From NCBI GenBank assembly GCA_050084515.1, contig CM114271.1, forward strand, positions 28,892,001-28,956,000: 64,000 nucleotides of DNA, written 5' to 3'. Source of the stretch: Blasia pusilla. Its lineage: Eukaryota. The notes beneath the pieces are model-generated. The model did not search any database. It was not told the DNA's origin and saw only the letters and a list, made by a program, of their open reading frames with translations. The position numbers and the translations under genes were made by a program. Of the stretch, positions 1-64,000 are shown in pieces (the first letter of the stretch is position 1; each line of letters opens with the position of its first letter).

Positions 1-323
1 AAGACTGGAGTCTACCGGTACTGTGGAGACGGAGGAGGAGGAGGAGGAGAAGAGGAATACGACGACGACTGCTGGTGCTGCTGTGTTTCTCTCGGTGGAA
101 ACAGAGTAGGCGTATGTCCGTCCCTCGCGATTGCTGCTGCTGCTGCTGGCGCTGCAGTGGAGTGGAGGAGATTGTCCATGAGTGTTAGCGCATCTGGCGA
201 GGAAGGCGACTAGATCTGTGAAGCTGGCTGGCGTGGCGATCCACGCGAAGTGACAGACAGAGGGTTTTAGGACTCCGGCTGGTGCCACCGACCAGGGAGT
301 TGCATTAGAGATATTTTATTGCG

Positions 324-373
324 AGAGAGAGAGACAGAGAGAGAGAGAAAGAAAGAAAGAAAGAAAGAAAGAA
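324..373 (+). repeat. (GA)n/(GAAA)n microsatellite in the METTL13 5' leader
   Basis: gagagagagagacagagagagagagaaagaaagaaagaaagaaagaaagaaa directly upstream of ATG 388. Confidence 0.85.
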
Positions 374-387
374 ACGGAGGGGGAGAG

Positions 388-27547: not shown

Positions 27548-27964
27548 ATGACGAAGAAGCACTGGATTCAGCTTGGGAAAGCCATGTTGAGCACTTATGC
27601 CATTATTGGGGCGGCATGGTGGTGGGATGAGGCATCTCCGTTGGGATGGTGGACCTTGAAGCCTCGAACCAAGGAAGAGAGGGAGATGGCAAACCGTTAT
27701 CAGCGTCGCGATTTTCCGTATCCTGGGGATGAGGAAGCCGTGAAGGAATTCGTTGCAAAAGGGGGTACATACGGAACAACAATCGGGACTCAAGCGGCGA
27801 TGAAAATTGCCGGAGATGATCTAATATCAGATCTGCAGCGCGAGAAATTCGAGCGAGAGTCCCAGAAGTTGTGGCTCCGAATGAGGCATGAAGTTCTCAG
27901 GGAATACGAGGAACAAGGATATGACATGTTGAGTGAGAACGAGAGTGAGAGCTTGTCGCATTAA
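27548..27964 (+). CDS. Plant protein of unknown function, ~138 aa, single N-terminal hydrophobic segment, intronless CDS
   Basis: Clean ORF from ATG 27548 (the track starts at GTG 27542): hydrophobic AMLSTYAIIGAAWWW, then SPLGWWTLKPR..EE, R.FPYPGDEEAV.EFVAKGG..GTTIG, KFERESQKLWLRMRHEV. I recall these blocks as a conserved uncharacterised plant family; no gene symbol recognised. Confidence 0.8.
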   Translation: MTKKHWIQLGKAMLSTYAIIGAAWWWDEASPLGWWTLKPRTKEEREMANRYQRRDFPYPGDEEAVKEFVAKGGTYGTTIGTQAAMKIAGDDLISDLQREKFERESQKLWLRMRHEVLREYEEQGYDMLSENESESLSH

Positions 27965-30329: not shown

Positions 30330-33020
30330 TGACCTAAAGAATTGGATTGCAAAAGTACCATCTTGAAACGTCACATGTTCAAATAAGAATATTGATCAAG
30401 TGGGAAAGGGTCATTCTAGCAGTAGCAGTCAGCGCCCAATTGAGAGGCCCAATTGAGGCTCCACACGTGTTCTCGATAACGAGCAAGGTACCTAATCACT
30501 CGAGCATCTCAAGATTCCTCAAACCCAGTTTTATGAATGTAGATACCATAAGGTTTGATGAAAAGAGTTGAGTCACATGACCACTCAGAAGCTCAACTCA
30601 GCAACAAGAGGGATATGAGGTACACCTCGAGGAACATGATTGCCACTAAGAGGGCCTTTAGTGGTGGTGTTTTCGATAGCCTGAGCCTGCCTTAGCTAAG
30701 CGTGTTACAAAGTTATGGAGACATGTTGCGACGCTGTTAGCCAAACGTGTGGCAATACGGAACATTAGAATTCTATTGGGCTCAGACTAGGATTCAAGTG
30801 CGTTGGAGTCTCTAGAATAAGACACGAGTTGTAAGCAAGATGCAAGGTTTGTCAGGCGTCTCAAGTAATGATTGTCATGACCTAGTAGAACTAGACCAAA
30901 TGCCAAGCTAGACCAAGTCCCACAAGAGTTGGGCACGAAGGCAGTTGGAACCTGACTAAGTATTTAGGGGTTCTCCGCGTTTGAGGTCATAACGACTAGA
31001 TCTAAGATGCGTTTGAGATGAAAATGTGGAGAAACCATTTAAAGTATGAGAATTATAGTTGGGTTGAGGGGCATAACAAGCAGCCTAAGAGGACTTTGCC
31101 AAAGACGGGGGGGTGAAGATTTCTAGAAGTATATGTAAGGGGAGGGTCTCCAAGGGAGTTTGGGACCCAAACCTCACCTTGGAAAACAGTGGGGGTGAGC
31201 CAAGAGTACAGAATGGATCGAGAGGTTGGATTCGAGAGGCGGACACCAAGCCAAGTCTACGGAAATTAATTACAGAAATCAACTTAGCTTGGGCCTTGAC
31301 CCTCGAGTCAGATATTGGGCTTGGGTAGAGACTCGTTCGAGGTTTATTGGGTTGTTGGGACCATCAAGCGTGCTAACAATGTTTTACGTTCTTGGACTAT
31401 GAATGAAGTTTGTGTTGAGTCTTCAAGTCTTCAACTATGACGGGCTCTGGTGGCGTCCGAAGGTACCTGGGCCCACTCGCACTTGTCCGTCCTAGGGACG
31501 GACATAAGTGCGCGGATATGAACATGTCCATGTGCAATCTTGAACATTAATGGTGTATGAAGTGCCTCCCAAAACGTAAAAGACCATGGAACCCTCGCCT
31601 GTCGTCCATTGATCCCCTGCTTTGGGTCTATCTCAACCTCATTTCTCAATGGCTTGGTCACTCTCATAGCACCCGGAGTCACCACAGCAACAATCTTCAC
31701 CTGAGCCACAATACATATTAATCTCAGACCAACGTAATCCTCCCATGTATCTTGATACAACATAGAGGTTGGAGCCAAAGTAGCTATTCATACATGCAAT
31801 CTGTTCACTAGACCCACTCTCCAATGATGACGATTCAACCACGAATGGAAGTTGGGATGGTTCTTCACTCAAAATCGCTCGATACCTTATGTCACTCAAC
31901 GTAATACCACGACCACCGCTCAAACTACCCTATTCTTCCAAACCTTGGAAGAACATTGTGATGAAAACCCTGCCTCACACACTCATACGCTCAGACTCAC
32001 TAAGACTTTCTCACACTCCTCACTATCTCACCCACCTTAATGCTAACCTTGTAATGACACATTAGGCCTTACGCTCACTCAATCGCTCGAGCTCACCTTA
32101 AGCCTCATATACTAGCTCATCTAAGCTATTGAAAACCTCGGGTTGTACACAAGACCCCTACTCGGGCAGCCATCCTATATCCACAAACACACTACACGCG
32201 CAAGAAGTCTATAATTGACATCATTGCTACATCCATCTAGCACAAGATTTATACGATATCCGACACCCTTAATGACATGAGACAAGTGTGGGAAAAGGGA
32301 CTCGCATGGACAACCTAAACACGCACATCATCACTCTATAGCATAATAGCACAATCAACATTGTCTGCTCTATGTGGTACGGCTACCTTCACGAGATGAT
32401 TATCTCCTTGACCAACACGTCGAATCTCTTGTCAACAGATGGGGACTATTCGCCAACATCCTCCTGAGTGCCTCCACCTCTAGCACTTCATCGCAAGTTT
32501 TCAATGTGGATCATCCATCTCAACATTGGTCGACACAATACTAGTGAGTCAAAAACTATGCCAATGACTCACGGTAGACCAGGAGTCTCGCTGAAAATGA
32601 CAAACCCCACTCCACTACACCAAGTTGTGAAGCAACTAGTGAAATTTCTCCAACCAACCTCCAAGAAAACCATGGCTTAACTACGTCATGCCACTCAACC
32701 TTGTAGCCCAGATACCATGGTCAACTTGCTCACCACGTCCGACATCCCAACCATGTAGCCCAGCCAACCGTGCAGAAACTCTAGTTGGGCGGCCAGTTGC
32801 AAACCCGTCACTACCCCGTGCATGGTCTAGCCTCAGGCCTGAATTCTGTCCAAGCCCATTATTGTACAATACCCTATGCAAGAGGTCCGTCATAACTCTA
32901 GTTGCTTTGTCCAAGAGTGATAGCCTTTGTTTGAGTTACTTTCATTTAATGCATTGTCATCCCAGTGCTCAAACCTCCATCCTTGACGCCAAGGGATAGA
33001 AAACACAACCTCAACATTTA
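30330..33020. mobile_element. Mosaic of decayed LTR retrotransposon fragments, including an LTR piece (~30870-31430, +) related to the chromovirus LTR at 56446-57431
   Basis: 31128-31167 aagtatatgtaaggggagggtctccaagggagtttgggacc aligns by eye with the reverse complement of ~56900-56945 aagtacgagtaagggggaaggtctccaagagtgcttgggac, and flanks stay colinear. The rest is non-coding or broken. Boundaries are approximate. Confidence 0.55.
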
Positions 33021-46945: not shown

Positions 46946-48874
46946 TTTTAAGGCAATGTTTTGAATATGAAGTTAAAATTTTGCATTTTTCCAAGTATTT
47001 GTAAAAAGACATGACCGCCTGCTTCCAAGTCCGTCTCCTAATGTGGCATGTAGCTATCCTTACGATGAGAAATATGTTTCTTTGTCTTCTGGCTTGGTGC
47101 TTTGCTATTTGGATACAAGTTTGATATTGCTTGCATGTAAGCCAAGAACAGATCCTGTCTCTGCCCAAGAACTGAGCCGCCTCTTATGAGTGAAATGTTG
47201 ACATGAAAAAGACTACCCTCAAATTGTTTGCATTTCTCAAAAAATTGGATAATGAAGTCAGAATATAGTCTGAATCATCCTACGATGTATTAAAGGATTC
47301 ATTTCTCACTCACCATTTTCTCTTCTCACATGGCATGCAATGACAGAATTTTTGGAGCCTAATGATGAATGTTTGTGTTTTTGTCTGTCTTAATCACAGG
47401 TCTTCCAAGACCCAGGGGGAAATTACATTATGGTAAAGAAGATGGGGAGTTGTTGTTTGGCGCTTTGGCGGTGTTTGGCTCATTTTTCAACCTAACAGTG
47501 TTGCGTCAATAAGAGCCCGACTTCATTATGATATGATATACACATTATTTGGCGATAAACTCGCCTTATTGCAGGCATTTAGTAGAGGCCTCTTGATTTT
47601 CACCATAGTATGCTATGAACAGTGTTAAAATGCAATAAAGTAAGTGAACATTTTTTGGACTTGTGTTGGCTTTCATGTGTGAATTCCCTAATTAGCTTCG
47701 TGTATAGCCTCTTTGGTTTATTTTTTATTTTTGAATGTTCCCCATGGCTTCGGAAATATAGGTTGGGGTGTCAATAATAGGCATTGCTAGCATGTGAATA
47801 TTTACCAGTCATGGACTGCATCCTTTCAACTTTGACGGTGTCTTTGAAGGCTTAGGCAATATACCACTGTCGTTGGGCATTGCTCGAATTCATTGATTTG
47901 TGTTTAATGTTACCAATGGACTGCATCGTATCATTTTCACTTCATTGCTTTCTGTTCAATGTTAACAATGAAGATTGCATCATTCCTCGAATAATTAAGC
48001 CAGTATAACTCGTGAATGTAACAGAAGTTGGCGCAAAATTCTAGGTGTGCTTGTGGGAAACATTATCTATCATAAAACCAAACTAGAAAATGGTGGTGTG
48101 AGAATTATCAGAGGCCATGGCACCGCAGTGACCATTTGGCTGGAAAATTGTATATTGATATATGTAGCCCATACATTGGTTGTATCTAGTTATACAAGGC
48201 AGATGCTATAACATAATACAAGCTCCTCTTAGAATTCCTCTGACAAAGTGCAATAGTCCCCACTGGCGCCAGCATCATAGCACTCCATGTCGGTATAATT
48301 GGAGCTTCCACTCTGCACATTATTGTCAAAATTGTTGGATTCTCAACATCCACTTCTTTGAGCACCATTAATCTGATCGGCCTCCTTATATGAGGAGAAG
48401 CCTAGATTGATGGTTCCGACTTAGTCATAGAAATATGACGTAGGTGGTTTATGGAGTAGCGTTAATAGGATTATCTAACCCTATATTGCATCAAGGTGAG
48501 GGGCATCCTCATGCGTTGCGGGGGTCCGGGGCACAGCCCCTAATATGCCAAGACAACGCGGGGTTTTTTTTTACCTATTTTTCTTTGTTTTATCAATAGA
48601 AACGAAGAAAAATAGGTTAAAAGCCTTAGTTTCCCGAGAAGTGAAATAATCCCCAGCGGTAGCGCATTCTCGTATGTTGAGTTATCTCCTTGTACAGGTT
48701 CCATCGAAGCTCTTCTATGAGCGCATGGACGGACGAGGCAACTTAGTATCTCCAAGTTTTGTAATAGATTTCAATGATTTTGTCACTTTCTGTTTTCTCA
48801 CATGGTATTAGAGTAGTAGGTTTTCCAGTATTTTTTATCTGGTGATCTAGTGTGTCTGTCCAAAATCTTGAGGG

Positions 48875-51800
48875 ATGGCTACTTGTTTGTCAGTTCGTGC
48901 TCTCCCTCCTCGCCTGGGTGAAGAGAAGTTAGATGGATCTAGCTATACATTGTTGCAGTGTAAAACTCATGGAAAAAGGTACTCTTTCAATCGCAAAGTA
49001 TTAAGTTCATTCCCAAGAGATCACTTTTTCCTGAGTAAAGAGAGGTTTTATAAGAAAAATCAAGAATAACTCCTTCACTAAGCACTTCACTAATTACAAT
49101 AACTAAGTCTTCACTAGTACAAAAGACTCTTCTTCCCTCTTGGAAAAGACTCTCCTCAAGCAGATAAAGACTCTTTAGAATCTTGAATAACAAAGTTTCA
49201 ACGAAGACCTCAAAGAGATCTCAAGAAGGAGCGGCTCATCCTACTTTCAGAATTGAATTTGTCATGGCAGGTTACTCACTGTCTAATAGCTTTCCTACGC
49301 TCTTCTGAATTATCTTGTGGAATTCTGAAATCACAATACTCAACTCTCATCCCTACTACAACCCAATAAGGTTTTACACTCAACTCCGCACATTAGAAAA
49401 CATGAGAGAAGACACTTCAACTTCATCAAAGAGTGGAAAGAACCAAAAATTATTACAAGCTTCTGAGGGTACAAGACTCTTCGGCTTGGATCATCCCCAA
49501 AGAACTCCTTACACAACCCACCAAGATGCAAGGGAATGACCCCTTCTTCTTCTTCTCTATTCTTTAAATAGTTTCTTGCAATTCATGACTCTTCCTATTC
49601 TACTCTAAATTTCTAACTACTAATCCGGCCCTCCTTGGTTTAGATCCTCCAACCCTCCATCTTCCTAAGGCGGTTGGTTGCTCTGGCGTTTCATTTTTGC
49701 TTCCTTCTCAACCACTGCGCCTCTTCATTTCCGACTTCCAAAACCGCCCTAGAGTTTCATTATTTACAGTCTTCGCGGTCCTCGTAATCCTATCTTCCGC
49801 CGCGAAGAGTGCTCCTTTGACTTTTCTTTCTTTTTTCTTTCTTCCAAAACATTATTTTTCTTTCTATTCCTATTCTTCATACACCTTTCCGCTTTGTGAA
49901 GACTCTTTGATTTCCTCTTTTTCTTCCTCTTTCTTCTTAGAGTTCTTAGTCTTTGCTCTTGGATCTTTGGTCTTTAGTCTTTGTTCACAGTCTTTGCACG
50001 AAGACTCCCTTGGATCATCTACTGTAAAGAAGAAGTCTTTTTTAGTCTTCCTTGACAGTCTTGACCAACATTCATACTGCGATCTTCCTTGAGAAGTACT
50101 CGCGCTTCTTGCTCTACTTCTTTCCCATTCTTTTCCTACTTTTACCCAATTCTCACGCTTCCAAGACAATCCTTAATCTCTTACTATCTCTTGTCCTTTC
50201 ATCAGAGTTTTGTCATTCCATGTTTTCACATGATTTGTGTAAAGTATACGTCTTTACTTCCGGTATTGAGTCTTTAGTCTTCACTCAAGGAAGACTTCAC
50301 TACAACTTTGTACAAAAAATGATCTTTCTACCAAAATTTCAAAAATATGGGCATTACAATTGTGGAAGCGCAAAATGAGAACTGTTCAAATTGGGAGACG
50401 GCCATAGAGGTCGATTCAAATCCACAAGCTACTTTGAGTTTAGCATGTTCATTTTCATCTGGTGATATCGATCCTGTTGTATTGCTGGCATCGAAACGCA
50501 AACATGCTGAAGCTCTATATGCGATTATCACGAATGTAAGTGATTCTGTCATGACTCTCATTCAATATACGACCATTGTTGTTGAGGCGTGGGACATTTT
50601 GAAGAATCAGTATGAAACGAAGAATAAGACTCGGATTCAAAATTTGGAGAATCAGCTAACATCCGAGAAATTTTCAGAAGGAGAAAGCATGGAGCAATTT
50701 TTGACAAGGATTGAGAATCTTCAAGATTAGATGGCGTATGTAGGAAATTCAAAGTCTAGCAAAGATTTGGCACGTCGGTGCATAAGGATTTTGCCTTCGA
50801 GGTATGATAGTTTGGTCACTGCATGGAATACTCAAGCAAGACCCACGCCGCTTACTTTGAACAATTTAGTGCAATGTTGGTAGAAGAGGAAATGCGCTTC
50901 AAAGCAAGAGAGGGAAGTGATGCAACATTTATTGCCAACGTACAGAGAGGTAGAAATCAGGATTATAGTTCAAATGTCAAGAAGAAATTTCCAAGGAAAG
51001 CCTTCAAATGATTTTATTGTGGTAAGCTAGGTCATCTTATCAAAGATTGTAGAAATAGGAGTCAGGATGAGAAGAACGATTGTTTAAGATCTAAGAAAGA
51101 GTCTGGAAATTCTGTAGAATTAGGAGAATATGAGGTAGATGCTTGGGTAGCAATCCAAGAGTTTTGCACACAGGCAGAACATTCCACTAAGTCAAAGAGT
51201 GAAGATGCAAAGGTGCTTGATAGTGGATCATCTAGGCATATGATCAATCATAAGGATTGGTATAGCTCCTTATAGCCTCTACAGGAGCCCATCGTTGTTA
51301 CTGTTGGAAATAATGCAAAGTGCCTTATAGAAGGGAAAGGCATAATTTTCTTTAGTCTCACAAAAAGGAGATGAAACTAAGTTAAGTGATGTAATGTATG
51401 TACCAGAGTTGAAGCGTAAATTGCTTTCAATATCAATATTATGTGATGGTAACTTAGAAGTTCATTTCAAGAAATGGATACCAATGGGAAAGTAGTGGAT
51501 GAAGGTATATGACGTGGAAATATCTACAAGTTGTATGCTTTCACGACAAGTGTAGTAGAAATCTTAGTAGCAGTAAGTTGTGGCATGAAAGATTTGGTCG
51601 CCTAAGCTTTCTCTTACTAAGTCAGATGTAGAAATATGGAATGGTTTCTGATCTACCAATAATTTTTGGAGTGTCGGATATATGTGAAGCTTGTATGATG
51701 GGCAAGCAACAACGACAACCATTTCCACAAGAGAGTAGCAATAGAGCAAAGGCTTCTCTAGAGCTGATACATGTTGACCTATGTGGTAAAATGAAAACAA

Positions 51801-54290
51801 TGGCATTAGGTGGTTCTTCCTACTACTTTTTAGTTGTCGACGATTATAGTATGAAGATGTGGGTGTATTTCCTTTGTGATAAGGCAAGTGCTTTTGGAAA
51901 ATTTAAAGTATGGCACAAGATGGTTGAGAATGAGACGGGAAAGAAGGTACAAAAGCTTCGCACCAATCGAGGAGGAGAATTCTTATCAATAGAATTCAAC
52001 AAATATTTGGGGGAGCATGGAATCAAGCGACCGTTAACCACGGCATATACACCACAAAAAAATGTAGTTGTTAAGCGTCGAAACCGTATACTGGTAGAGA
52101 TGGCAAGATATATGATGAAAGCAAAAGCTTTGACAGAAGGATTTTGGGCTGAAGCTGTTAATACTACCGTTTACATTCTAAATAGAAGTGCTACCAAGTT
52201 AGTGTAAGACATGACTCCTCATCAATCATACTCAGGTAAGGTACCATCAGTCCAACATTTTAGGACTTTTGGTAGTGAGTGCTTTGTATATATTCTTGAA
52301 GCATCCAGGACCAAGCTGGAGTCCAAGAGCAAGAAGTACATCTTTATGGGATACAGTGATGAGTCTAAAGCTTATCGCTTATGGTGTCCTGAGGTAAAGA
52401 GGAGACTTGTAAGTCATGATGTGGTGTTTCAAGAACAACCTCATCAAGTGGCGGATGTCAGTGGTCCGTCCATATTATCATCAATCGAAGAGATAATCCA
52501 CTAGAGCACACCATCAATGTTTACACTAGATCATCAAGAAGAAGAATTTGGTGATGATTACAAAGAGCAGTCTGCTCTTCCACTACGGTCGTCATACCCT
52601 AAGTGGATAAAGCAACTCTTGGATGGTAAGGATCCACTAGCAATTGATGAAATTGTTACACATCCGAGGAGATCCAAGAGACTAGAGGAGCATAATAGAG
52701 CTTTCGCACATCTCATCAACATGGCCTTGATGACATAAGTCTTGAAGGTGGAAGAGCCATCATGCTTGGATGAGGCCCTTGCTCATCCTCTCTGGAGAGA
52801 GGCCATGCAAATGGAGATGGATGCTATTTAAAGAAATGAAACTTGGACTTTGGTTGAGAAGCCAAAGGACAAGAAGATAATACGCACCAAGTGGATGTAC
52901 AAGACCAAGCACAAGTCAAACAGTACATTAGATAAATTCAAAGCGAGGTTGGTTGCACAAGGATGTTCACAAATCAAAGTTTTTTTATTACCATGAGACT
53001 TTTGCTCCTACTGCAAGGATGACAACCATTCAAATTGTTTTAGAAAACCAGGAACAAGGCGTTGGCTTGTATACCAATACGATGTGAAGTCTGCCTTTCT
53101 GAACAGGAGTCTCAAGGAGGAGGTGTATATATCTCAACCACCAGGTTTTGAGACACTCGGATTAGAAGAGAAAGTGTGTTTGCTTCATTGAGCATTGTAT
53201 GGGTTGAAGCAAGCCCCAAGGGTATGGTATCAACGAATAGATACATTCTTCCGAGAGAAGGGTCTCATCAAGAGTTCGTGAGAAGGAAATTTGTATGTGT
53301 TTTGCGAAGATGGGATGTATACGTTGATAGTCCTGTATGTGGATGAATTGATCATCACACTAGACCACGATAAGAAAATAGAGGAAATGAAGGAAGTGTT
53401 GAAATCTGAGTTTGAAATGTTAGATTTAGTTCTTTTGCATTACTTTATAAGGCTAGAGATTTGGCAATAGTAAGATTCTATTTTTCTCTCTCAACAAAAA
53501 TATGCTAGAGAAATCTTAAAGCCATTCAAGATGACCGAGTGTAAGGCAGTGATCTTGCCAATGGAGATAGAGTTGAAACTCTCAATGGAGGATGTTTCAC
53601 CATTGGTAGATGAAAAGTTATACAAAAAGCTTGTTGGGAGTTGGATATTTTTGTGCAACACTAGACCAGACATTAGCTTTGCCATGGGAGTATTGAGTAG
53701 GTTCTCAACTAAGCCTCGTGAGAACCATTGGAAGGCAAGGATGCGTATGTTGAAGTACGTCAAAGGCACTATCGAGTACGACATCACCTATGGGGTAGGG
53801 ACGAAAATGATAGCCTTTTGTAACTCGGATTGGGCAAGAGATTCAGATTCTTGCAGAGCAGTTCCGAGTTATTGCTTCTTGGTAGAATGAGGTATGGAGT
53901 CATGGATCAGCAAGAAGAAACCTACATTGGCTCTTTCTTCTACTGAGGCACAGTACAAGGCGGCTTGTTTTGCCTCTTGTGAAGCAGTATGGTTGAGATG
54001 GATATTGGAGGACACATGAGAAGCACTAGAAAGTGCTACTGTAATGTGGTGTGATAATTAGAGTTGCATTGCCATAGCACATAATCTTGTGTTTCACGCT
54101 CGTACGAAGCACATAGAGATCCAGTATCATTTTTTTGGTGAGTTGATTGAGAGAGAGGTTTTGAAGTAAGTCTATTGTCCAACAGAGGATAACCGTGCAG
54201 ACATCTTCACGAAAGCTTTGAGCGGAGATAAGCCTCACCGACATCTGAAGGATCTTGGCATCGGTCCAAGAAATTATTCCACATGAGAGT
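48875..54290 (+). pseudogene. Copia gag-pol polyprotein remnant (gag, zinc knuckle, protease, integrase, RT, RNase H)
   Basis: [135 protein letters not shown]. Order PR-INT-RT-RH indicates copia. Many stops. Confidence 0.95.
48954..50358 (-). mobile_element. Solo LTR (1405 bp, Athila-like family) inserted in copia gag
   Basis: TG...CA ends (TGCAGTG / CATTACA) with a perfect 5-bp TSD ATTGT (48949-48953, 50359-50363). Removing it restores YTLWKRKM. The block cctactttcagaattgaatttgtcatggcaggttactcactgtc matches ~61216-61258. Confidence 0.9.
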
Positions 54291-55053
54291 GGATATTGAG
54301 GGGGAGGGGGGTGTTGTTGGATTCTCAACGATCACTTCTCTCAGCACCATTAATTTGATCGATCCCATTGTATGAGGAGAAGCCTAGGTTGATGGTTCTA
54401 ACTTAGACATCGAAGGAGTCATAGTAATATGACGTAGGTGGTTTATGGAGTAGCGTTACTAGGATTATCTAACCCTATATTCAAAATTTTCTATTAATAT
54501 ACACGAAGAAAAGTAGGTAAAAAAAACCCTAATTTCCCGAATAGTGAAATAGTCAGAAGCCGCAGCGGTAGCGCATTCTTGTATGTCGAGTTATCTCCAT
54601 GTTCAGGTTCTATCGAAGCTCTTTTGTGAGTGCACAGATGGACTAGGCCACTTTGTATTCCAAGTTTTTTAATAGATTTAAGTGATTTCATCATTTTCTG
54701 TTATCTCACAGAAACCGGTTTCCACAACTTTGAAGTCTTTTTAGTAGAAAATACCAGATGTGGAACTCGTTGTGGCAGTATTTTGAAGGATAAAGTAACA
54801 TCTGAGCCGTCTGTCATGAGTCCTCCTAAGTTCTTCTAAAATCTTGGACACATCGACGAGCTGAGATATAGGTTCTTTATCTAGAATGGAAGAAATATCG
54901 TCTCCTTTGGAAGCTATGACATCAAATGAGGCTAGATCTTGAATGACACGGACTGTAGATAAAGTGGTGTTATAAAGATTAGAGATACAAAAATTTCTAT
55001 CATCATTCTATACTCTCCATGCCAACAAACGATCACCTTCCCATAGATCAGGA

Positions 55054-56445: not shown

Positions 56446-59075
56446 TCATCCTGCGTCTACTCTCCTTGAACGTCAATCTTAGTGTTGCGGAAGCGTACGT
56501 TCATTAGGACACGCTTTCATTGCCAACATGCACCCAAATGCACTCACATTAGTCTGGCTTTGGGTCAAGCGGCCTTCCAACCCATCGAGTCTTCAACTCG
56601 GCGTCTCATCAAGCTCAAACTTCCCTCAATCCTAGGTTCCCAACGCGGGCAAGCCTTCCGAGACTTGGGACAGACTTTCTGGTTAGTCTAGGCACCTGAA
56701 ACAGCGTTTGCGCACCCAACTATCCAAGGGACCTTGCATGAGCCCCTAACCAAGACTCAAAAAGATGAGTCGCAAGTTGGAATCCAATAGGGACTTCCGA
56801 AATCCCTCTATTGAACTTGGTTTGGGTTTTGAAGCCCAACACCAAACTCATAATCCGTTCTGTGCCCTTGGGTCGCCTTGTGGTGCCCAAAGTGGGGTTC
56901 AAGTCCCAAGCACTCTTGGAGACCTTCCCCCTTACTCGTACTTATGGAAAACTCAAGGGTCCCCCTACCTTTGGGAAAGACCACCCGGGCCTCAATTTTT
57001 GGCCCTCAACTCGACTCCTCTTATAGTCGATTTTGGCCCATATCTCAACCTCTATACAAGAGTTTGCAAAGATCTTTAATGCATTGGAACCGGCTTGACA
57101 TAAGTTCTTCAACGCTATCTTATCCCAAACGCTTCTTGAGACTCAAAGTTATGGTCAAAAGTACAGTCAGAAACTCCCAAACGCTGCCCGCGTCTCAAGT
57201 CTGGTTTTCACCCCTTGGCCGCGTCTCGTCCAAGACTTGACTTCTCTCAAGTCTGAGTACTGCGTTTGGTTCCGGTTTCCTGGTCACGACAAATGAAACA
57301 CTCGAACACTCGCCTCACTCGCGTCTTGCCCTTGTGTTTCCTTAACTCCCAAAGCGCAAACCATCCTACCGTGAGCTCGCTAGAGTTTGGATGTTCCGCT
57401 TGGCGCTTGTTTGGTTATGAGGGTCACGACACTCACCCCTCTTTAGAGTTGATGCCCTCATCAACGCAAACCTTTTTAATTTCAAGTCATCGTGGGAAGC
57501 CAACCCCTTGACATCGAATCGCGTTCTGGTAGCTAACCCGCAATTCCTCTTCTGGCTTAAGTTTTATGTTGTCACTTGCAACACTTAGCATCATTTAGCG
57601 TCTCCTCTTCAATGAGCCTGGACCAATTCTCAACCGATCTAACCTATCAAATAAGCTAACTAAGGTTGCTACCTAAAACTACTTGTGCTCACAACTTGTA
57701 AACATCTCACCTGTTTACACGGTCCACAATTTGTACTACTCTTGGGTCGTTCTCGTATTTGACTTAACCGCGTCATTAAGTTCACTCATACACTCACGAG
57801 TGAGATCACCCCAAGCCCCAAGACAGAGTGATCTGCCCCGGCGACGCTAGGGCGAGCCCAAGTGCTAGTTGCCCAACACTTAGTCCTGTTCTAGGTACTT
57901 ATTCAAATACTAGCTCTTGCCTCAAATACTCCTTGTTTATCCTCTTGACTTACATCCTAAGCATATGAAGAACTATTCGTTGCCATGCCCTACCAAAGAC
58001 AAATTGCAAATAACACACGCATCAAATCTCCAAATTCATGCATTCCTTTATTGCAACACTAGCGTGCTCTAGTTACAATGGCCTTTGGCCCAAGCTTCCT
58101 ATGGCACTAGTCATGTCTCTAGCTTCTCCATGTACTAACGCATGTGCTTCCCTTGCAACCGTTTGAAGTCTTGCAACACCTCTTGCGCGTGTTCTAGATC
58201 TGCCTCCGCAATCCAAGTCGCCTCTTTCACATGGTAGCCTTTCCACTTGACCAAGTACTCGTACTTGTTGGCCCTACGCCTCGCACGCAAGATGGTCTCC
58301 ACCTCAAACTCCGGTTCTTTGCTTACGATTACCGGTTGTGGTCTCAACGCCTGTCTTCACTCGGGACGCTCATTATCCTAAAGATACTTCTTCAATAATG
58401 ACACATGGAAATTGGGATGTATCTTGAACTCTTCTGGCAGCTCCAATGTATACACATCCTCAAACGAGTTTTCCTTAATCACATACGGTCCAACATACTT
58501 GGTAGATAGCTTCACGGACAACTCCTTCAGAAGAGTGAGATTCTTCACACTCAACCACACTTGTTCTCCAACTTGGAATTTCACTTGGCGTCCGCTTTTG
58601 TTAGCATGCTTCACGTACCTCACTTGAGCCTTTTCAAGGTTTCTCCTTGCTCGCTCCTCTCGCTCTCGCATTTCCGCTAACAAACCTTCTACCGTCGCTT
58701 GTCGGGTCGGTGCTGATGTAGTACCCTTCGAAAGGGCTAGGTCAAGAGGCCCTTCTTGCTCACGTCCATAAGCCAGGAGAAACGGAGATTCTCCAGTTGT
58801 AGAATGTTTGGTGGAGTTGTGGCAGAACTCCGCCATACTCAACCACTTCACCCAATCTCGCTGGTCCGCGCTCACGTAATTCCTTAAGTATTGGTTCACG
58901 AGGGAGTTTACCTTTTCCGTTTGCCCATCCGTCTGCAGATGGAAGGCCATGTTGAAACTCAACTTGGTCTTGAACCTCATGAACAAGTGTTTCCAAAAGG
59001 CACGAGTAAACTTTGGATCCCGATCTGAAACAATACTCCTTGGCAATCCGTGTGCGCGCCACCAACTATCCAAGA
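56446..59075 (-). mobile_element. 3' part of a Ty3/gypsy chromovirus (integrase, chromodomain, PPT, 3' LTR from 57431 downward)
   Basis: HGLPRSIVSDRDPKFT..FW, AFHLQTDGQTEKVN, KYVGPY (GPY/F motif), IHPNFHVSLLKKY; chromodomain FEVETIL...YEYLVKWKGYHVKEATWIAEADL (58135-58347); PPT aagaggggtgag then TGTCGTGACC at 57431. Confidence 0.92.
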
Positions 59076-62000
59076 AGAGTCGACATCGCCGCGCTTCGCA
59101 GAATGGGTGTGGCGTCTTCGCGAGGCATGTTGCTAGGTCGATCTCGATGGACACCGCGCTTTGGCCTGCTACGCAACTTCGTGGTGATTCCGTCCATGAA
59201 AATACCCGCTTGGGTACGCCAGACTGCTCTTATAGTCCGCTCCCCCCCCTGTCCGTTCTTGGTCGTGACGCCGGGGCTGTAACAAGAAAGTGGGCGCTTC
59301 GCGGCTTTGCCACGCTTCCCCTTCCTATCTTCCTGCGCTTCGCCGCATGGGCTGTAAGGGTCGATCGGAACCTCGGTGCTTTGCTACTTCGCGAAGCACG
59401 GTCTATCTTGAACTTCGGTGCTTCGTGACTTCGCGAAGCACGGGGCGTTCGCCTACCCCCTTCCTCATGTTTCAGTCATCCTCAGGTTCGGGCTCATAAT
59501 ACCGGCGCACATGCATTCCATTGACTCACGTGGGCAGGGATTCTCCATGTAAGGTTTCTAATTGGAGGGATCCATTATCATAGATGGCCAATACCCGGTA
59601 GGGTCCCATCCAATTTAATTTTAATTTTCCGGGGAACTTTAGTCGCGGTTATCATCTGAAGAGCACTAAGTCGCCAACATTGATAGATTGTGGCGGAGAT
59701 GTCGATCGTAACGTTTCTTACGTTCTTTTGCACTTGGGCTGTCGTCGTAACGCCGAGCATGCGTGCTTCTTCCAACTCCACTAGAGTCTCATTCCTGTGT
59801 TCGATAACTTCGTCCGCAGCTTCCGTTCTTGTGCCCTCCAATACCCGATAAGTGGGCAACGCCCATTGAATAGGTGTTAAGGGATGTACGCCATAAGTCA
59901 GGAAGAACGGGGTGTAGTTTGTCGTCACCTTCTCAGCTATTCAGTACGCCCATAATGCTGGGGCAATTTTTGTGTCCCAATCATAGGAATAGGTTACCGT
60001 TAATCGATTCAATATTCGGCAAATGAGGCCGTTCGATTTTTCCGTCAACCCATTGGCTTTTGCGACATGGGTGAATTCAAGAATAAAGTTATCCACATCG
60101 TCTCGTCGGCCTCCAGCAAAGGTGGGGTACCTTAGCAGAGTTTTACTAGTGTTGGCCATGGACACTGCTCTCCTGCTGGCTCCCAGGCTTGATGCTCGAG
60201 AAGGAGGAGGTAAAGGTGCCGCCCGAGGTGCTCTGATCGGCTCCTCGCTCCCTGACTCTCCAAAGGGGTCCCAGGACGACTCTTTGTCCGACTGCGAACT
60301 GGCAGGGGACGTAGTGGGAAATTTGTCCCTTTCTTTCTTCTTGGTCTTCGTCTTTGGACGAGGACGAAGACTCGGAGACAAACCAGGGGTCCCAAGCCGT
60401 TCTTGTTCTCTCGCCGCCATCTGCGCCCGATCGGGCTCATTGCTCGCGAAGAGGGCTGAGAGCCTTCCATAAGTCTCTTGGGGGATTTGGCAACTCGCAA
60501 TCATCCCCCCGGTGGCGATAGGGTAAGGGTCCATGGATGGAGGTTAACTACTGATTCTTTTTACATCTACAGGAGGGTGCCTGGTGCTCCTATGCTTCCT
60601 GCCAGGTTTTCCTCCCATAGACAGAAGTACCGGTTTTCACCAAGCACCACTATCGTCCATGGGCGAAGCACCGTTCGGCGACCGGTTCTTTGTCCATTCT
60701 ATTTAGTTGGCCTATCTTCTTTAGCACCAATGCAGCAATTGTATTGTTATCTTCAAGCATACATTGTCTTACAGGGATCGCTAGAGCTAGCCGATGGTCT
60801 TTAGTAAGAATTAGAATGTGGGTTGTTTAGGAGCGAAGCTTCTTTCTCCGTTCCTTGCTTCCCAATGGGTCTTTTTCTCCCTTCCCAGCCAAGGATATGA
60901 TCCCCGGCAGCGGCGCCAAAAAGTCTTCGACTATATGTAATGTCTAAGTGTTTCTTATTTACAGTCAATTGTAGAGTTCGATCCCCAAGAGGATCATTGT
61001 TGGATGAAAAGAGAGTATAAGGTGATGATTTTGTTGTAAAAGTGTTATTGATTATGTAATTCAATTGTAGTATTCCAGTATTAGCTTCCGATCCTTCTTA
61101 GTACCTATGTTTTCTTCTTCAATTCTCTCGAGTGGAGTTTAAAGGACACTCAGGAAATTTGTTCTCTCATCATCTCGGAACCTCACAGAGACCTCAAGAA
61201 TAAAGCTGGCTTCTCCTACTTTCGGAACTCAATCCGTCGGGGTAGGTTACTCTCTGTCAAACAGATTTCATACAACTTTATATTGATTATTCCATTGATG
61301 AGAAAGGTTCGCCTGATTCACTCTTCACTCGATAGACCCAAAAATAATGTTCAGACATAAGCATCGCACATCAGAATGAATGAATGAATGCTTTACTACT
61401 CCATCAAGAATTGGAAGACTTCAAAGTATCTACAAGCTCGAGAAGGTACATCTCTCTTGCTCGGACCATTCCTACAGCATAAGGACTTCATGAGCGAATG
61501 ATGATAATAGCTTCTGTCCGGTTTCTTAAATATTCTCGAGAGTAAGATCGTTTCTATGATCCGAAGCGTTCTTGATGAAGGGTGTGTCTTTTCAATATCT
61601 GTAACTACCTAGATCTATGGTTCTCTTAGCTTTTCCTACGATCCCTATGAATCCGCGGTACAAAACTGTCCTAACTACCAATTTGATACAAAGGGTCGCG
61701 CCCTTTCCTAGTCTAATTGTTCTAACTATGTGTCGTTTCGAATCTCAATTCTGCTGAGCTTCGTTGCGCTAAATTTCCGGAGGACGAAGTTCTTCTTTCT
61801 TCTTCGTGCTTCGTGCTTCGCTCTTCGTGCTTCGCTCAAGAGCGAGGTACTTCGTATATAGAGCTTCGTTAAGCTTCGCTGAGCTTCGCGTTGAGCTTTT
61901 ATACTTCTTTACAGATTTTGACTCTCCTCTAAGGCAAATCCTTGATCTTCATCTCTCTGCCTTGTCTTGGGAGCTTGGTGATTCACTTATTCTTCTTCAT

Positions 62001-62104
62001 AATAATAGATAATCATAATCAAAATCATAATATACAAGAGTATTCGTTGAATAAAAAGATATATTCTTCAAGATTACAAAATTGTGGGTATCACAAGATC
62101 AACG
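59076..62104 (-). mobile_element. Athila-like Ty3/gypsy deletion derivative (LTR ~60923-62104, PBS, gag-integrase fusion)
   Basis: PBS TGGCGCCGCTGCCGGGGA (60901-60918, minus); gag N-terminus YPTFAGGRRDDVDNFILEF; integrase C-half ANGLTEKSNGLI..DWDTKIAPALWAY*...TNYTPFFLTYG. The LTR is related to the solo LTR at 48954. Confidence 0.75.
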
Positions 62105-62388
62105 TGTCACTCGACAACTCAATGCGGATCCCTAGACCCTTCAGCGTACCCAAATTGTGCATTCTAAATGAAAAAAAACTCTTACAACTCCTAAGGAACT
62201 TGTGTATCCGGCGCGGATGTCGGTGGTTGCTCTGGTGCAACCCCGTCTCAGAAAATAGAACTCTCATCTCCACGTGCAGTACCCGGAACCACGCTCGATG
62301 TTGTGGCTATCCTCTCCTGGCGTACCTGCAAAACATCCCAAGAAGTCCAAGGGTGTCTCTCCCGATCACCCTTGGTGTGTTGATCTCC

Positions 62389-63964
62389 TCAGATCTTGCC
62401 CCCAACCACTGCCTCAACCATCTCGGTAGGCATGGGGCTCACCAACGCAATATTTGTGATCTGTCGCATCCTCAAACGACGTTGCTCAGCTACTCCTAAG
62501 GTAAAAATCCATGTCAAGGAGTTCAAGTCTATCTCCTGACCCAAGACATGACGTCGTGATGCCTTTGATAGTGATGGTACTATCGTCACTCCTGTGGGAA
62601 ATCCCACTGCTTGCTCTCGCTCATTGGCGTTGGGCTCCACCAACATCTGTACTTGGTCATCCCAAACCAAGCCAGGTCCGGCCTCCTTGAATGCATAGGA
62701 AGCAGGAAAACTCACCAATGTGAGAAAGGTTGCCCGTGGCCTGCCAATCCTGTTGACCACAGTCAATGGCGATCGATCATCTAGCCTCATTGCCTATGAT
62801 CGACGGCCCGGATCCAATATAGAATCCACCAACAAATCGGAGGGGCGCTCCACTCTCACATATGCCCTCCGCAACACCTCATATGGTACCAAGTTGGTCC
62901 ACCAAAGTGTGAGAAAACAGAAAGTGAGGAAATCACTAAAATCTTTACAAAACTTAGAGATACAAAGTGGCCTAGTCCGTCTGTGCGCTCATAGAAGAGC
63001 TTCGATGGAACCTGAACATAGAGATAACCCGATATACGAGAATGCACTACCGCTGCGGCTCCCGACTATTTCACTACTCGGGAAACTAGGGTTTTTATCT
63101 ATTTTTCTTTGTTTCTATTAATAGAAAAATTTTGCCAGGGGCTGCGCCCCCGAACCCTTGCCCTGCACCTTATATTGCATCAGGATGCCCCGCACCTTGA
63201 TGCAACATAGGGTAAGATAATCCTAGTAACGCTACTCCGTAGACCACCTATGTCATATTACTATGACTCCTTCGACGTCTAAGTCGGAACCATCAATCTA
63301 GGCTTCTCCTCATACAAAGGGGGTTGATCTGATTAATGGTGCTCAGAGAAGTGGATGTTGAGAATCCAACACAAAGACACGGGCGATGTGCTCGTGAACC
63401 CACATTCGCCGCATCCAACAAAACTATTGTGCCAATCCATGCGCGCATTTGATGTGCACTTGTCACCACATGGGACCTCGAATTGTCCAAAATCGGTACA
63501 TTCTCCAGAATGTATGCTCGAGGACGAGATTGTTTCTCCTGCAAGTGTCACAAGATTCGCATCATCTCCCAAAACAACCTGGACCGAGAGTTAACTAATC
63601 CGCTACCTTGTCCGACACTCGACTAGCCCTGACATAGCCAACCAGCAATTACCAAGTCTATGGTCCCTACCCACTCCAAGTCCTACGCCCCCAACAATGA
63701 AATGTCCCTCGGTAGGGAACTCTGATAACCCTGAATGGCGGACGCAGACAACAAGTCGGGAAAACGGAGGCGTAATTGCGCCACATGGTGAAGTGAAGCG
63801 CGCCTCACAACATCATCAATCTCCACATATAGCTACTGCTACATGGGCACTCCAAAGTGCAAAATAGCAGCTAACCCAGTGTTGATCCCTCCAAAGAGAT
63901 CCAACACCCGAATACCCTTCTCTCGGATGCACCACCCAATCGGGGTGGTGTCCAAAGGGGTCAT
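62389..63964 (-). pseudogene. DNMT3-like cytosine-5 DNA methyltransferase domain in a retroelement polyprotein, interrupted by a solo LTR
   Basis: One frame after removing the solo LTR: motif I GIRVLDLFGGINTG, II LYVEID, IV IDLVIAGWLCQG, VI YILENV, VIII VGSRAHRPCLWWTNL, IX EREQAVGFPTGVT, X RRHVLGQEIDL. Spacing and the short target-recognition region match DNMT3-type enzymes (IRVLSLFDGIATG, SAAHRARYFWGNL, EMERVFGFP..YT, RQRLLG). Six in-frame stops; no introns. Confidence 0.9.
62908..63371 (-). mobile_element. Solo LTR of the copia family at 48333-54710
   Basis: Reverse complement begins tgttggattctcaacatccacttct and ends ttttctcaca, like LTR 48333-48802. Perfect 5-bp TSD CAAAG (62903-62907, 63372-63376). 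Confidence 0.97.
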
Positions 63965-64000
63965 AGCAGCACTCCTGCCTACTTGGGGTTCCTATGACCT

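What the first reader, a model, noticed from the sequence alone, without database searches (positions are those of the whole stretch)
62389..64000. DNMT3-like cytosine methyltransferase carried by a retroelement
Seen: an intronless C5-MTase domain with motifs I, II, IV, VI, VIII, IX and X in one frame once the copia solo LTR (TSD CAAAG) is removed. It is surrounded by retroelement sequence, and its frame runs on past motif X rather than ending like a host gene. Established: cytosine methyltransferases inside retrotransposons were reported in dinoflagellates and charophyte algae (de Mendoza et al. 2018, Nat Commun). Inference: this is a land-plant retrotransposon family with its own de novo methylase, possibly methylating its cDNA to evade or manipulate host silencing. 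This copy is inactive (six stops; catalytic PC reads LC).
Basis: partly seen in the sequence, partly recalled or inferred. Interest (0 to 1): 0.92.

Follow-up and report, generated by a model that had tools for sequence, protein, structure and literature searches.

The report
Dead retrotransposon copy carrying DNMT3 methylase
This is a broken, truncated copy of a jumping gene that carries its own DNA-methylating enzyme; the family is very abundant and transcribed in this plant genome and has close relatives in liverworts and mosses, whereas elements of this kind have so far been described in algae.

Summary
On the minus strand, 63991-62392 encodes a DNMT3-like C5 cytosine methyltransferase domain (Pfam PF00145, E 9e-10; best solved relatives DNMT3A/B/C). 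A 464-bp Ty1/copia solo LTR with target duplication CAAAG splits it. The copy has six internal stops, and the catalytic Pro-Cys reads Leu-Cys.

The reading frame continues past motif X. The first ~70 codons of a Ty3/gypsy reverse transcriptase follow at 62306-62095, in another frame. The copy then breaks off at 62095, and gag-protease lies beyond the window end.

Relatives show the full order gag(CCHC)-protease-DNMT-RT-RNaseH-integrase(-PHD), some between paired LTRs. They come from Marchantia, Riccia, Calypogeia, Sphagnum and Closterium and from 80 metagenome loci. DNMT dN/dS in these relatives is 0.13-0.15.

In a genomic run labelled as the same species:
- DNMT depth is at least ~300 times what one copy could give.
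- 305 reads skip the LTR.
- 1007 reads run on into reverse transcriptase.

RNA runs show strand-biased transcripts of other copies.

This is a new member of a known kind (Gypsy-Dnmt3 of Klebsormidium). Enzyme activity and cDNA methylation remain inferred. I found no land-plant report in six literature searches.

The parts
63377..63991 (-). DNMT3-like C5 methyltransferase domain, N-terminal half (AdoMet-binding motif through the QxRxR-type motif). It has five in-frame stops, and the catalytic Pro-Cys reads Leu-Cys.
   Evidence: Pfam PF00145 E 9.1e-10. PDB phmmer best hit DNMT3A at 2.8e-8. tblastn of P0008 residues 862-1057 at 59% identity. Stops listed.
63372..63376 (.). Target-site duplication CAAAG (second copy).
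   Evidence: Read directly. The 469-base skip in 305 DNA reads has a 5-letter ambiguity at the joint.
62908..63371 (-). Solo LTR of a Ty1/copia family, inserted into the DNMT domain. It has TG..CA ends and the same orientation as the DNMT element.
   Evidence: blastn finds 77% identity to 48333-48802 and 86-89% to 54315-54710, both in reverse orientation. That element has rve then RVT_2 on the + strand.
62903..62907 (.). Target-site duplication CAAAG (first copy).
   Evidence: Read directly.
62392..62907 (-). DNMT domain, C-terminal half (target-recognition region and the last two conserved motifs), with one in-frame stop at 62796.
   Evidence: tblastn of P0008 residues 1060-1243 matches 62907-62332 at 54% identity, E 2.2e-56. 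Alignment to P0016. No Pfam hit on its own.
62215..62391 (-). Linker or tail after the DNMT domain, in the same frame and homologous to the tail of relatives (HPWxxWD). It has stops at 62391 and 62250.
   Evidence: Alignment to P0016 and P0023. The same tail appears in metagenome loci.
62095..62306 (-). First ~70 codons of the Ty3/gypsy reverse-transcriptase region, in another frame than the DNMT. It is cut off at 62095.
   Evidence: tblastn of P0023 residues 1167-1216 and P0015 residues 710-752 matches 62213-62067/62085. Alignment. No Pfam hit for this short piece. Loose ends before 62095 appear in 1007 DNA reads.
62094..62095 (.). Breakpoint. Homology to the family ends here. Unrelated repeated non-coding sequence lies at lower coordinates.
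   Evidence: Loose-end table. No RT/RNase H of the family elsewhere in the window at E<=1e-5.
48333..54710 (+). Full-length Ty1/copia element whose LTRs are the relatives of the solo LTR (context, not part of the DNMT element).
   Evidence: rve E 8.4e-11; RVT_2 E 6.3e-56.

Best explanation
The stretch is a dead, truncated copy of a Ty3/gypsy-type LTR retrotransposon whose polyprotein carries a DNMT3-like C5 cytosine methyltransferase between protease and reverse transcriptase (gag-PR-DNMT-RT-RH-INT-PHD in intact relatives).

In this copy:
- gag-PR lies beyond the window end.
- The DNMT domain is split by a copia solo LTR and carries six stops and a changed catalytic loop.
- Only the first ~70 codons of the RT region remain before a breakpoint at 62095.

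The family as a whole is highly repeated and transcribed in the source species, and its DNMT domain is kept under purifying selection in relatives.

Inferred mechanism (not shown). In relatives the DNMT is translated as part of a Gag-PR-DNMT product, which lies upstream of a conserved in-frame stop that limits RT-RH-INT to readthrough. The enzyme would therefore be made in Gag-like amounts, be carried in the virus-like particle, and methylate the newly made cDNA or the new insertion de novo.
For: Shown in the window:
- PF00145 hit.
- DNMT3A/B/C are the best solved relatives: 2.8e-8 for the window piece and 5.8e-28 for the family profile, against 7.6e-11 for DRM and 8e-8 for M.HhaI.
- The two halves abut exactly across the LTR.
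- The RT start follows the DNMT tail.

Shown in relatives:
- 27 of 27 hits belong to this family (16 Marchantia polymorpha, 2 Calypogeia, 1 Sphagnum, 8 unnamed).
- P0008 has two CCHC knuckles, a protease DSG motif, then DNMT. Pfam gives Retrotrans_gag in P0011 and Asp_protease_2 in P0005.
- P0226 and P0100 carry zf-CCHC, Asp_protease_2, DNA_methylase, RVT_1, RT_RNaseH, Integrase_H2C2 and rve in one ORF.
- L023 has ORF1 (protease + DNMT, 1369 aa), one TAG, then ORF2 (RVT_1, RNase H, integrase, PHD; 1047 aa) in the same frame.
- In 17 of 22 loci that hold both, DNMT and RT share a frame.
- LTR pairs flank the coding region in L026 (92% identical, TG..CA) and L004 (94%).
- dN/dS of the DNMT segment is 0.13 (L023/L022) and 0.15 (L023/L025), against gag-PR 0.19 and RT-RH 0.04-0.31.
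- The catalytic Cys-Gln and the Glu of the ENV motif are invariant in 25 diverse members.

Shown in the source species:
- DNA depth of about 2300-2550 over the domain.
- 305 DNA reads lack the LTR.
- 1007 DNA reads continue into RT.
- RNA depth is 40-90 with the first mate on +, against 1-15 with it on -.
- RNA reads also skip the LTR (3/4/7 reads) and continue into RT (56/32/58 reads).
Against: - gag-PR, most of RT, RH, INT and both LTRs of this copy are not in the window. Membership of this particular copy therefore rests on DNMT plus ~70 RT codons and on the reads.
- The RT piece is in another frame than the DNMT here.
- The C-half and the RT piece give no Pfam hit alone. P0017 and P0023 gave no Pfam family at the thresholds used, although they align.
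- 5 of 22 related loci have RT in another frame. 9 of 26 do not show the conserved stop because of frameshifts, insertions, a deletion or the locus end. No target duplication was found for L026.
- No named host DNMT3, DRM, CMT or MET1 and no Klebsormidium sequence could be put in a tree, so placement inside the DNMT3 clade rests on PDB ranking only.
- The deepest split in the tree is weakly supported (13).
- The table of variant letters was cut before the DNMT region, so I did not see whether other copies in this species are intact.
- The sense of the RNA relies on the usual convention of stranded libraries.
- No activity data exist for this family.
Confidence: 0.88

Rival explanations
1. A processed pseudogene or fragment of a host DNMT3 gene that happens to lie among retroelements.
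For: The domain is intronless and decayed, it sits in nested TE debris, and the window shows no gag-PR or full RT of its own.
Against: - The RT start follows the domain directly.
- The family is repeated hundreds of times or more, and other copies run on into RT.
- All close relatives are gag-PR-DNMT(-RT-RH-INT).
Confidence: 0.02
2. The family is real, but its DNMT-like domain no longer methylates DNA. It could serve a structural or binding role, or methylate RNA.
For: No activity assay exists for this family. de Mendoza et al. 2018 (PMC5890265, discussion passage read) report that one retrotransposon DNMT (SymbioLINE-Dnmt) failed to methylate DNA in yeast.
Against: The catalytic Cys-Gln, the ENV Glu and other motif residues are invariant or nearly so across 25 members with 24% mean column identity. 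dN/dS is 0.13-0.15. The profile matches DNMT3A catalytic domains at 5.8e-28.
Confidence: 0.12
3. The DNMT and the RT piece belong to two different elements brought together at this locus by nested insertion or recombination.
For: They are in different frames here, and the locus is heavily rearranged: there is a solo LTR and a breakpoint at 62095.
Against: The same junction sequence (tail, then ETWEPLIG..CFAF..RPYR) is found in one frame in many independent loci, in Marchantia proteins, and in DNA and RNA reads of the species.
Confidence: 0.01
4. Some copies of the family have been domesticated as host de novo methyltransferases, so the family's conservation reflects host function rather than transposon function.
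For: Marchantia gene models for these copies are annotated as genes, some named DNA (cytosine-5-)-methyltransferase by UniRef. The domain is under purifying selection.
Against: Selection was measured between elements that also keep intact RT-RH-INT (L023, L022). High copy number and LTR pairs fit an active transposon lineage. No single-copy, syntenic, intron-bearing derivative was seen, but I could not look for one.
Confidence: 0.07

Closest known systems
KnitGypsy-Dnmt3 of Klebsormidium nitens (de Mendoza et al. 2018, Nat Commun 9:1341; PMC5890265, section 9 and passages read)
   Same: An intronless, non-rearranged Dnmt3-type domain inside the polyprotein of an LTR Gypsy retrotransposon of a streptophyte. 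Key catalytic residues are conserved, and Ka/Ks is below 0.2 there against 0.13-0.15 here.
   Different: - Host range: the relatives here are liverworts, mosses and Closterium, and the family is high-copy in the source species, whereas the paper stresses few copies in K. nitens.
- The paper's legend says the K. nitens repeats are arranged as in DIRS. Here L026 and L004 show a simple LTR pair.
- The domain order of KnitGypsy-Dnmt3 is given only in a figure I could not see, and no Klebsormidium sequence appeared in my searches. Common descent is therefore untested.
SymbioDIRS-Dnmt3 and SymbioLINE-Dnmt of Symbiodinium (same paper)
   Same: Retrotransposons that carry a C5 methyltransferase. For the DIRS type, de novo CG methylation was shown in yeast, and methylation of cDNA was proposed.
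   Different: These are other retrotransposon classes (a DIRS element with tyrosine recombinase, and a LINE) in another eukaryotic supergroup. The authors regard them as independent acquisitions.
Gypsy elements with RT-RH-DNMT-INT-PHD order
   Same: Ty3/gypsy-type RT/RNase H and integrase, a DNMT3-like domain 35-43% identical to the window's, and a PHD finger after the integrase.
   Different: The DNMT sits between RNase H and integrase, not between protease and RT. The two orders fall on opposite sides of the midpoint root in the tree, though the deepest branch is weakly supported. I do not know whether this group is described in print. The 2026 preprint 10.64898/2026.05.21.726589 (passages read) describes Cymbomonas elements with a DNMT at the 3' end of pol that are related to DNMT4, and these may be different elements.
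Host DNMT3 de novo methyltransferases (animal DNMT3A/B/C; Physcomitrium DNMT3, Yaari et al. 2019, abstract and passages read)
   Same: The catalytic domain is the closest solved relative. The motif order is not permuted, unlike DRM.
   Different: Pfam found no PWWP or ADD domain in the carriers. The domain is intronless, embedded in a retroelement polyprotein, and multi-copy.
Chromoviruses (Ty3/gypsy elements with a chromodomain after the integrase)
   Same: A chromatin-reader module at the integrase C-terminus. One such remnant lies nearby at 58135-58356 (Chromo, E 1.4e-15).

Membership tests
C5 cytosine DNA methyltransferase (Pfam PF00145) | Significant match to the family profile above the curated cut-off | tested here: met
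   38.9 bits against a cut-off of 22, E 9.1e-10, on the N-half. The C-half alone gave no hit.
C5 cytosine DNA methylase, active enzyme | Catalytic Pro-Cys in motif IV and an open reading frame | tested here: not met
   This copy reads Leu-Cys and has six internal stops and an inserted LTR. Relatives keep the Cys-Gln invariant.
DNMT3 type (as against DRM, DNMT1/MET1, CMT, DNMT2, bacterial) | Closest to DNMT3 catalytic domains, with a non-permuted motif order | tested here: met
   Family profile against PDB: DNMT3A 5.8e-28, DNMT3C 1.8e-23, DNMT3B 6.6e-23, DRM 7.6e-11, HhaI 8e-8, DNMT2 3e-4, and no DNMT1 or CMT at E<=0.001. The alignment to DNMT3A is colinear from the N-terminal motif onward.
DNMT3 type | Placement inside the DNMT3 clade in a phylogeny with named host DNMT3, DRM, CMT and MET1 | not tested
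Only retroelement-borne or unnamed sequences are in the trees.
DNMT3 type (animal architecture) | PWWP and ADD reader domains N-terminal to the catalytic domain | tested here: not met
   Pfam found none in P0008, P0009, P0226, P0100 or the L023 ORFs. A PHD finger lies after the integrase instead.
Ty3/gypsy (Metaviridae-type) LTR retrotransposon | Order PR-RT-RH-INT, with RVT_1 and the RT_RNaseH type of RNase H | tested here: met
   Met in relatives P0226, P0100, L023 and L008. In the window itself only the RT start is present.
Ty3/gypsy LTR retrotransposon | Paired LTRs with TG..CA ends flanking the coding region | tested here: met
   L026: 1679-2017 and 10353-10691, 92% identical, TG..CA. L004: 5997-6303 and 14744-15050, 94% identical. 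No target duplication was found in L026. This is not testable for the window copy because both ends are missing.
KnitGypsy-Dnmt3 lineage | Common descent of element and DNMT with the Klebsormidium elements; same domain order | not testable with these tools
   No Klebsormidium sequence was retrieved. The domain order appears only in Fig. 4c of PMC5890265, and figures are not held.
Multi-copy retroelement family in the source genome | Many diverged copies, some without the private LTR insertion, continuing into RT | tested here: met
   37175 reads laid from a 1-in-100 sample. By likeness they split 190 / 2367 / 9662 / 24956 (>=99 / 95-99 / 90-95 / <90%). 305 reads skip the LTR, and 1007 reads continue past 62095.

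The most novel reading that the evidence does not exclude
Bryophyte-type land plants harbour an old, still transcribed Ty3/gypsy lineage, shared with Closterium, that makes a DNMT3-type de novo methyltransferase as part of a Gag-PR-DNMT product upstream of a leaky stop codon. It also carries a PHD reader on its integrase. With hundreds to thousands of copies, the element-borne enzyme would methylate its own cDNA or new insertions, and it could contribute measurably to the host's de novo methylation. If so, part of what is counted as 'DNMT3' in liverwort and moss genomes is transposon-encoded.
Probability: 0.3. Interest if true: 0.8.

Novelty: new member of a known kind. Interest (0 to 1): 0.62.

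Why it matters
Cytosine methylation is the main way plants silence transposons, so a transposon family that brings its own de novo methyltransferase turns that relation around. Retrotransposon-borne DNMTs are documented for dinoflagellates and the alga Klebsormidium.

The data here show three things:
- A related Gypsy-DNMT3 lineage with a defined architecture is present in liverworts and mosses.
- It is among the highly repeated families of the source genome.
- It is transcribed.

This makes some open questions testable in tractable bryophyte models such as Marchantia:
- Does the enzyme methylate cDNA before integration?
- In which sequence context does it act?
- Does this help the element (mimicry of methylated host DNA, self-limitation) or the host?

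It also matters for annotation. Several Marchantia and Sphagnum gene models named as DNA methyltransferases or hypothetical proteins are pieces of this element.

Tried and rejected
- Whole genome: none is held for this window. A genome-wide census of copies was therefore replaced by laying reads.
- Earlier notes of the scan: by place and by sequence gave nothing. By words gave one diatom note.
- Programmed frameshift between DNMT and RT: I considered this because the window's RT piece is in another frame and the Marchantia gene models end after the DNMT. I rejected it. 17 of 22 related loci have both in one frame, and the separator is a conserved in-frame stop.
- Rest of this copy further down the window: the integrase remnants at 58735-60054 match family integrases only weakly (27-33%). 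One carries a chromodomain rather than a PHD finger. No RT/RNase H of the family is present.
- Naming the unnamed library hits: 10 look-ups gave one organism name, Closterium.
- Klebsormidium or named host DNMT3 sequences: none came back.
- Literature: searches for the Marchantia gene identifiers found 0 papers. Searches for a land-plant report found none. This is not proof of absence, because supplements are closed and many journals are not held.
- Sequencing-run index: no RNA holder listed.
- Scripts: two motif regexes found nothing and were replaced.
Full report
WHAT IS IN THE SEQUENCE

The finding lies at the 3' edge of the window and reads on the minus strand. With stops read as X, 63991-63377 gives a 205-residue piece that matches Pfam DNA_methylase PF00145 (E 9.1e-10, 38.9 bits, cut-off 22). 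The piece 62907-62389 gave no Pfam hit alone. It is clearly the rest of the same domain. Marchantia protein P0008 aligns with residues 862-1057 to 63970-63383 and with residues 1060-1243 to 62907-62332, which leaves no gap in the protein across the 469 bases between them.

Those 469 bases are a 464-bp element with TG..CA ends (62908-63371) plus one copy of the duplicated target CAAAG. The element is 77% and 86-89% identical, in reverse orientation, to 48333-48802 and 54315-54710. These two stretches flank a 6.4-kb element with an integrase core followed by RVT_2, which is the Ty1/copia order.

The domain has six internal stops (63841, 63835, 63685, 63625, 63550, 62796) and two more in the tail (62391, 62250). 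It reads Leu-Cys where relatives have the catalytic Pro-Cys.

WHAT KIND OF METHYLTRANSFERASE

Against all solved structures, the window piece is closest to DNMT3A/3B/3C (2.8e-8 to 7e-7), then plant DRM (8.7e-5), then M.HhaI (8e-3). A profile of 25 family members gives DNMT3A 5.8e-28, DNMT3C 1.8e-23, DNMT3B 6.6e-23, DRM 7.6e-11, HhaI 8e-8 and DNMT2 3e-4, with no DNMT1 or chromomethylase at E<=0.001. 'DNMT3-like' is supported by ranking. A tree with named host enzymes could not be made.

IS IT PART OF A RETROELEMENT

Evidence in the window. After the last conserved motif, the frame continues through a tail shared with relatives (HPWxxWD). At 62306-62095, in another frame, the sequence encodes the stretch that in relatives leads into the Ty3/gypsy reverse transcriptase (..FLRxxxSxFxFxMxxLGxLxGxGIRIELxSDT..). 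Homology stops at 62095. No further RT or RNase H of the family is in the window. The gag-protease part would lie beyond base 64000.

Evidence in relatives.
- The word-indexed protein search returned 27 hits at 44-62% identity, all of this family: 16 Marchantia polymorpha gene models on several chromosomes and scaffolds, 2 Calypogeia fissa, 1 Sphagnum and 8 unnamed.
- P0008 (1278 aa) has a gag-like N-terminus with two CCHC knuckles, an aspartic-protease motif, then the DNMT. Pfam supports Retrotrans_gag in P0011 and Asp_protease_2 in P0005.
- P0015 and P0023 run on from the DNMT into RT and RNase H.
- Two unnamed proteins of 2318 and 2188 aa carry zf-CCHC, Asp_protease_2, DNA_methylase, RVT_1, RT_RNaseH, Integrase_H2C2 and rve in that order in one ORF.

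Evidence at DNA level. A scan of metagenome contigs gave 80 loci. I examined 31 of the 80 with tblastn.
- 22 of the 31 hold both DNMT and RT. In 17 of those 22 the two share a frame, and in 5 they do not.
- L023 is intact apart from one stop. ORF1 (1369 aa) has protease and DNA_methylase. ORF2 (1047 aa), in the same frame, has RVT_1, RT_RNaseH, Integrase_H2C2, rve and a PHD finger.
- LTR pairs flank the coding region in L026 (about 340 bp, 92% identical, TG..CA) and L004 (94%, cut by the locus end). I found no target duplication for L026.

THE FAMILY IN THE SOURCE SPECIES

One genomic and three RNA runs with the same species label as the best holders were laid on 60001-64000 at >=80% likeness.

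Genomic run (about 1 in 100 of its reads).
- 37175 reads were laid. Only 190 were >=99% alike and 24956 were under 90% alike.
- Depth over the DNMT halves is about 1600-2550 (both orientations summed).
- The 190 near-identical reads could give at most about 7.5-fold depth over 4 kb. The family is therefore present in at least about 300 copy-equivalents. This is a rough lower bound, and it is my inference.
- 305 reads join 62902 to 63372, so other copies lack the solo LTR.
- 1007 reads leave the window sequence before 62095. Their printed consensus, read on the minus strand, continues ..RRPYRYSDME, the RT motif seen in Marchantia (..FRRPYRYSEMERD).

RNA runs.
- Depth is 40-90 with the first mate on the + strand, against 1-15 with it on the - strand.
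- By the usual convention of stranded libraries, this means transcripts in the sense of the DNMT. That is a convention, not something tested here.
- RNA reads also skip the LTR (3, 4 and 7 reads) and continue into RT (56, 32 and 58 reads).
- Few RNA reads are >=99% alike (3, 22 and 6), so it is other copies that are transcribed.
- The table of variant letters was cut off before the DNMT region, so I cannot say whether intact copies exist in this species.

IS THE DOMAIN KEPT FOR FUNCTION

In an alignment of 25 members with 24% mean column identity, the catalytic Cys-Gln, the Glu of the ENV motif and eleven other positions are invariant. Between related elements with open frames, dN/dS of the DNMT segment is 0.13 (L023/L022, dS 1.34, near saturation) and 0.15 (L023/L025, dS 0.25). 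For comparison, gag-PR gives 0.19, the linker 0.42-0.60 and RT-RH 0.04-0.31. These loci belong to a more distant branch of the family than the window copy.

RELATIONSHIPS

The exhaustive library search found 1651 proteins at E<=0.001, and the 150 best were returned. I flagged domains with home-made profiles on 179 proteins. The counts were:
- 38 gag-PR-DNMT
- 5 with DNMT before RT
- 26 RT-RH-DNMT-INT, plus 25 partial forms of that order
- 81 bare DNMT pieces
- 4 others

Pfam confirms the second order in 3 of the 5 proteins scanned (P0036, P0048, P0053). P0079 showed the flanking RT, RNase H, integrase and PHD but no DNA_methylase at E<=0.001, and P0032 showed only DNA_methylase. P0036 and P0079 also carry a PHD finger. 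Named members of the second order are chlorophytes (Chromochloris, Cymbomonas, Haematococcus).

In a tree of 95 domains, the two orders fall on either side of the midpoint. Rows under 280 residues and one duplicate were left out. The group with DNMT after RNase H has 94% support for 60 of its 62 rows, but the deepest branch is weak (13).

In a second tree of 38 rows, the window copy falls in a clade of 25 rows with 100/98 support. This clade holds all named liverwort and moss sequences. The window copy is unresolved at its base. A Closterium clade and metagenome clades lie outside. The nearest named sequence is from Calypogeia (64-65% identity).

One host ORF of the window (27545-27964) has its nearest Atlas clusters in Streptophyta. 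The organism itself is coded in the tools, so 'land plant' remains an inference.

MECHANISM

Shown: the architecture, conservation, copy number and transcription described in this report.

Inferred: in 17 of the 26 loci whose DNMT end could be read, a single in-frame stop separates the DNMT tail from the RT region.
- 13 of the Marchantia-like type read PKVFA*QPMASS.
- 3 read TD*/MD*Q.
- 1 has a double stop.
- The other 9 are frameshifted, interrupted, deleted or end too early.
- The codon is TAG or TAA, followed by CAA CCC, CAG TTA or CAA TCA. As I recall, this resembles the UAG-CAR-YYA readthrough context of plant viruses.

This fits the many database proteins of 1230-1440 aa that end after the DNMT. 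If the stop is leaky, Gag-PR-DNMT is the abundant product and RT-RH-INT the rare one. The methyltransferase would then be in the particle in Gag-like amounts, where cDNA is made.

de Mendoza et al. (PMC5890265; abstract, section 9 and discussion passages read) showed de novo CG methylation by a retrotransposon DNMT in yeast and proposed methylation of cDNA. Nothing of that kind has been tested for this family.

NOVELTY

What is in print.
- Gypsy elements with Dnmt3 are described for Klebsormidium nitens (PMC5890265).
- Sarre et al. 2025 (PMC12344493, passage read) and a 2026 preprint (10.64898/2026.05.21.726589, passages read) refer to 'streptophytes (Gypsy-DNMT3)' and cite that work.
- Six searches and one for the Marchantia identifiers found no report of such elements in liverworts, mosses or other land plants.

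Verdict. I file this as a new member of a known kind. The copy in the window is a relic of no function. The interest lies in the family.

Noticed in passing
L004 11336; L008 11339; L009 1345; L024 11337; L026 6940; L022 4661; L023 5083; L025 2081: A single conserved in-frame stop separates gag-PR-DNMT from RT-RH-INT in related elements. The stop is TAG or TAA and is followed by CAA CCC, CAA TCA or CAG TTA. This suggests stop-codon readthrough rather than frameshifting, and it would place the DNMT in the abundant Gag-type product.
   Followed up: partly
L023 8053-8187 (ORF2 residues 990-1034); L012 about 11543-11674: The integrase of the DNMT-bearing elements ends in a PHD finger (Pfam PF00628, E 2.6e-10 and 5.7e-10), where chromoviruses have a chromodomain. 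The element thus combines a methylation writer with a histone reader.
   Followed up: partly
Proteins P0036, P0048, P0053, P0079 and about 50 more: A second, large group of gypsy elements has the DNMT3-like domain between RNase H and integrase (RT-RH-DNMT-INT-PHD). Its named members come from the chlorophytes Chromochloris, Cymbomonas and Haematococcus, and many more come from metagenomes.
   Followed up: partly
window 62775 to 63675: A joint that skips 899 bases, with 12 other letters between the two sides, is seen only in RNA runs (1, 4 and 8 reads) and in no read of the genomic sample. It could be a transcribed deleted copy or a processing event.
   Followed up: no
window 48333-54710: A full-length Ty1/copia element on the + strand. 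Its LTRs are 48333-48802 and 54315-54710, with rve at 51632-52207 and RVT_2 at about 52835-53566. It belongs to the same family as the solo LTR inside the DNMT.
   Followed up: yes
window 58135-60543, minus strand: Remnants of other Ty3/gypsy elements. These include an integrase C-terminus with SH3_Tf2-1 and a chromodomain (58135-59229), a second integrase C-terminal piece (59578-60054), and an ORF (59941-60543) that looks like a gag start fused to an integrase end.
   Followed up: partly
window 60939-62094: Non-coding sequence next to the breakpoint is itself highly repeated (depth about 270-820 in the genomic sample) and is transcribed at a low level. Its nature is unknown; it may be an LTR of another element.
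   Followed up: no
window 31491-31811, minus strand: There is weak similarity (33%, E 5e-9) to the post-knuckle gag region of the Marchantia DNMT elements. This may be a fragment of a related gypsy gag.
   Followed up: no
Tree: Sphagnum and Marchantia polymorpha copies are separated by short branches (about 0.1-0.2) and do not follow the moss/liverwort split cleanly; Calypogeia, Riccia and M. paleacea lie outside them. This could reflect slow evolution, old paralogous lineages or horizontal transfer.
   Followed up: no
window 271-765 and 27545-27964, plus strand: These are likely host genes: an exon with a weak Methyltransf_25 match (E 2.3e-4), and a 139-aa ORF whose nearest Atlas clusters are streptophyte proteins of unknown function (score 0.98).
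   Followed up: partly
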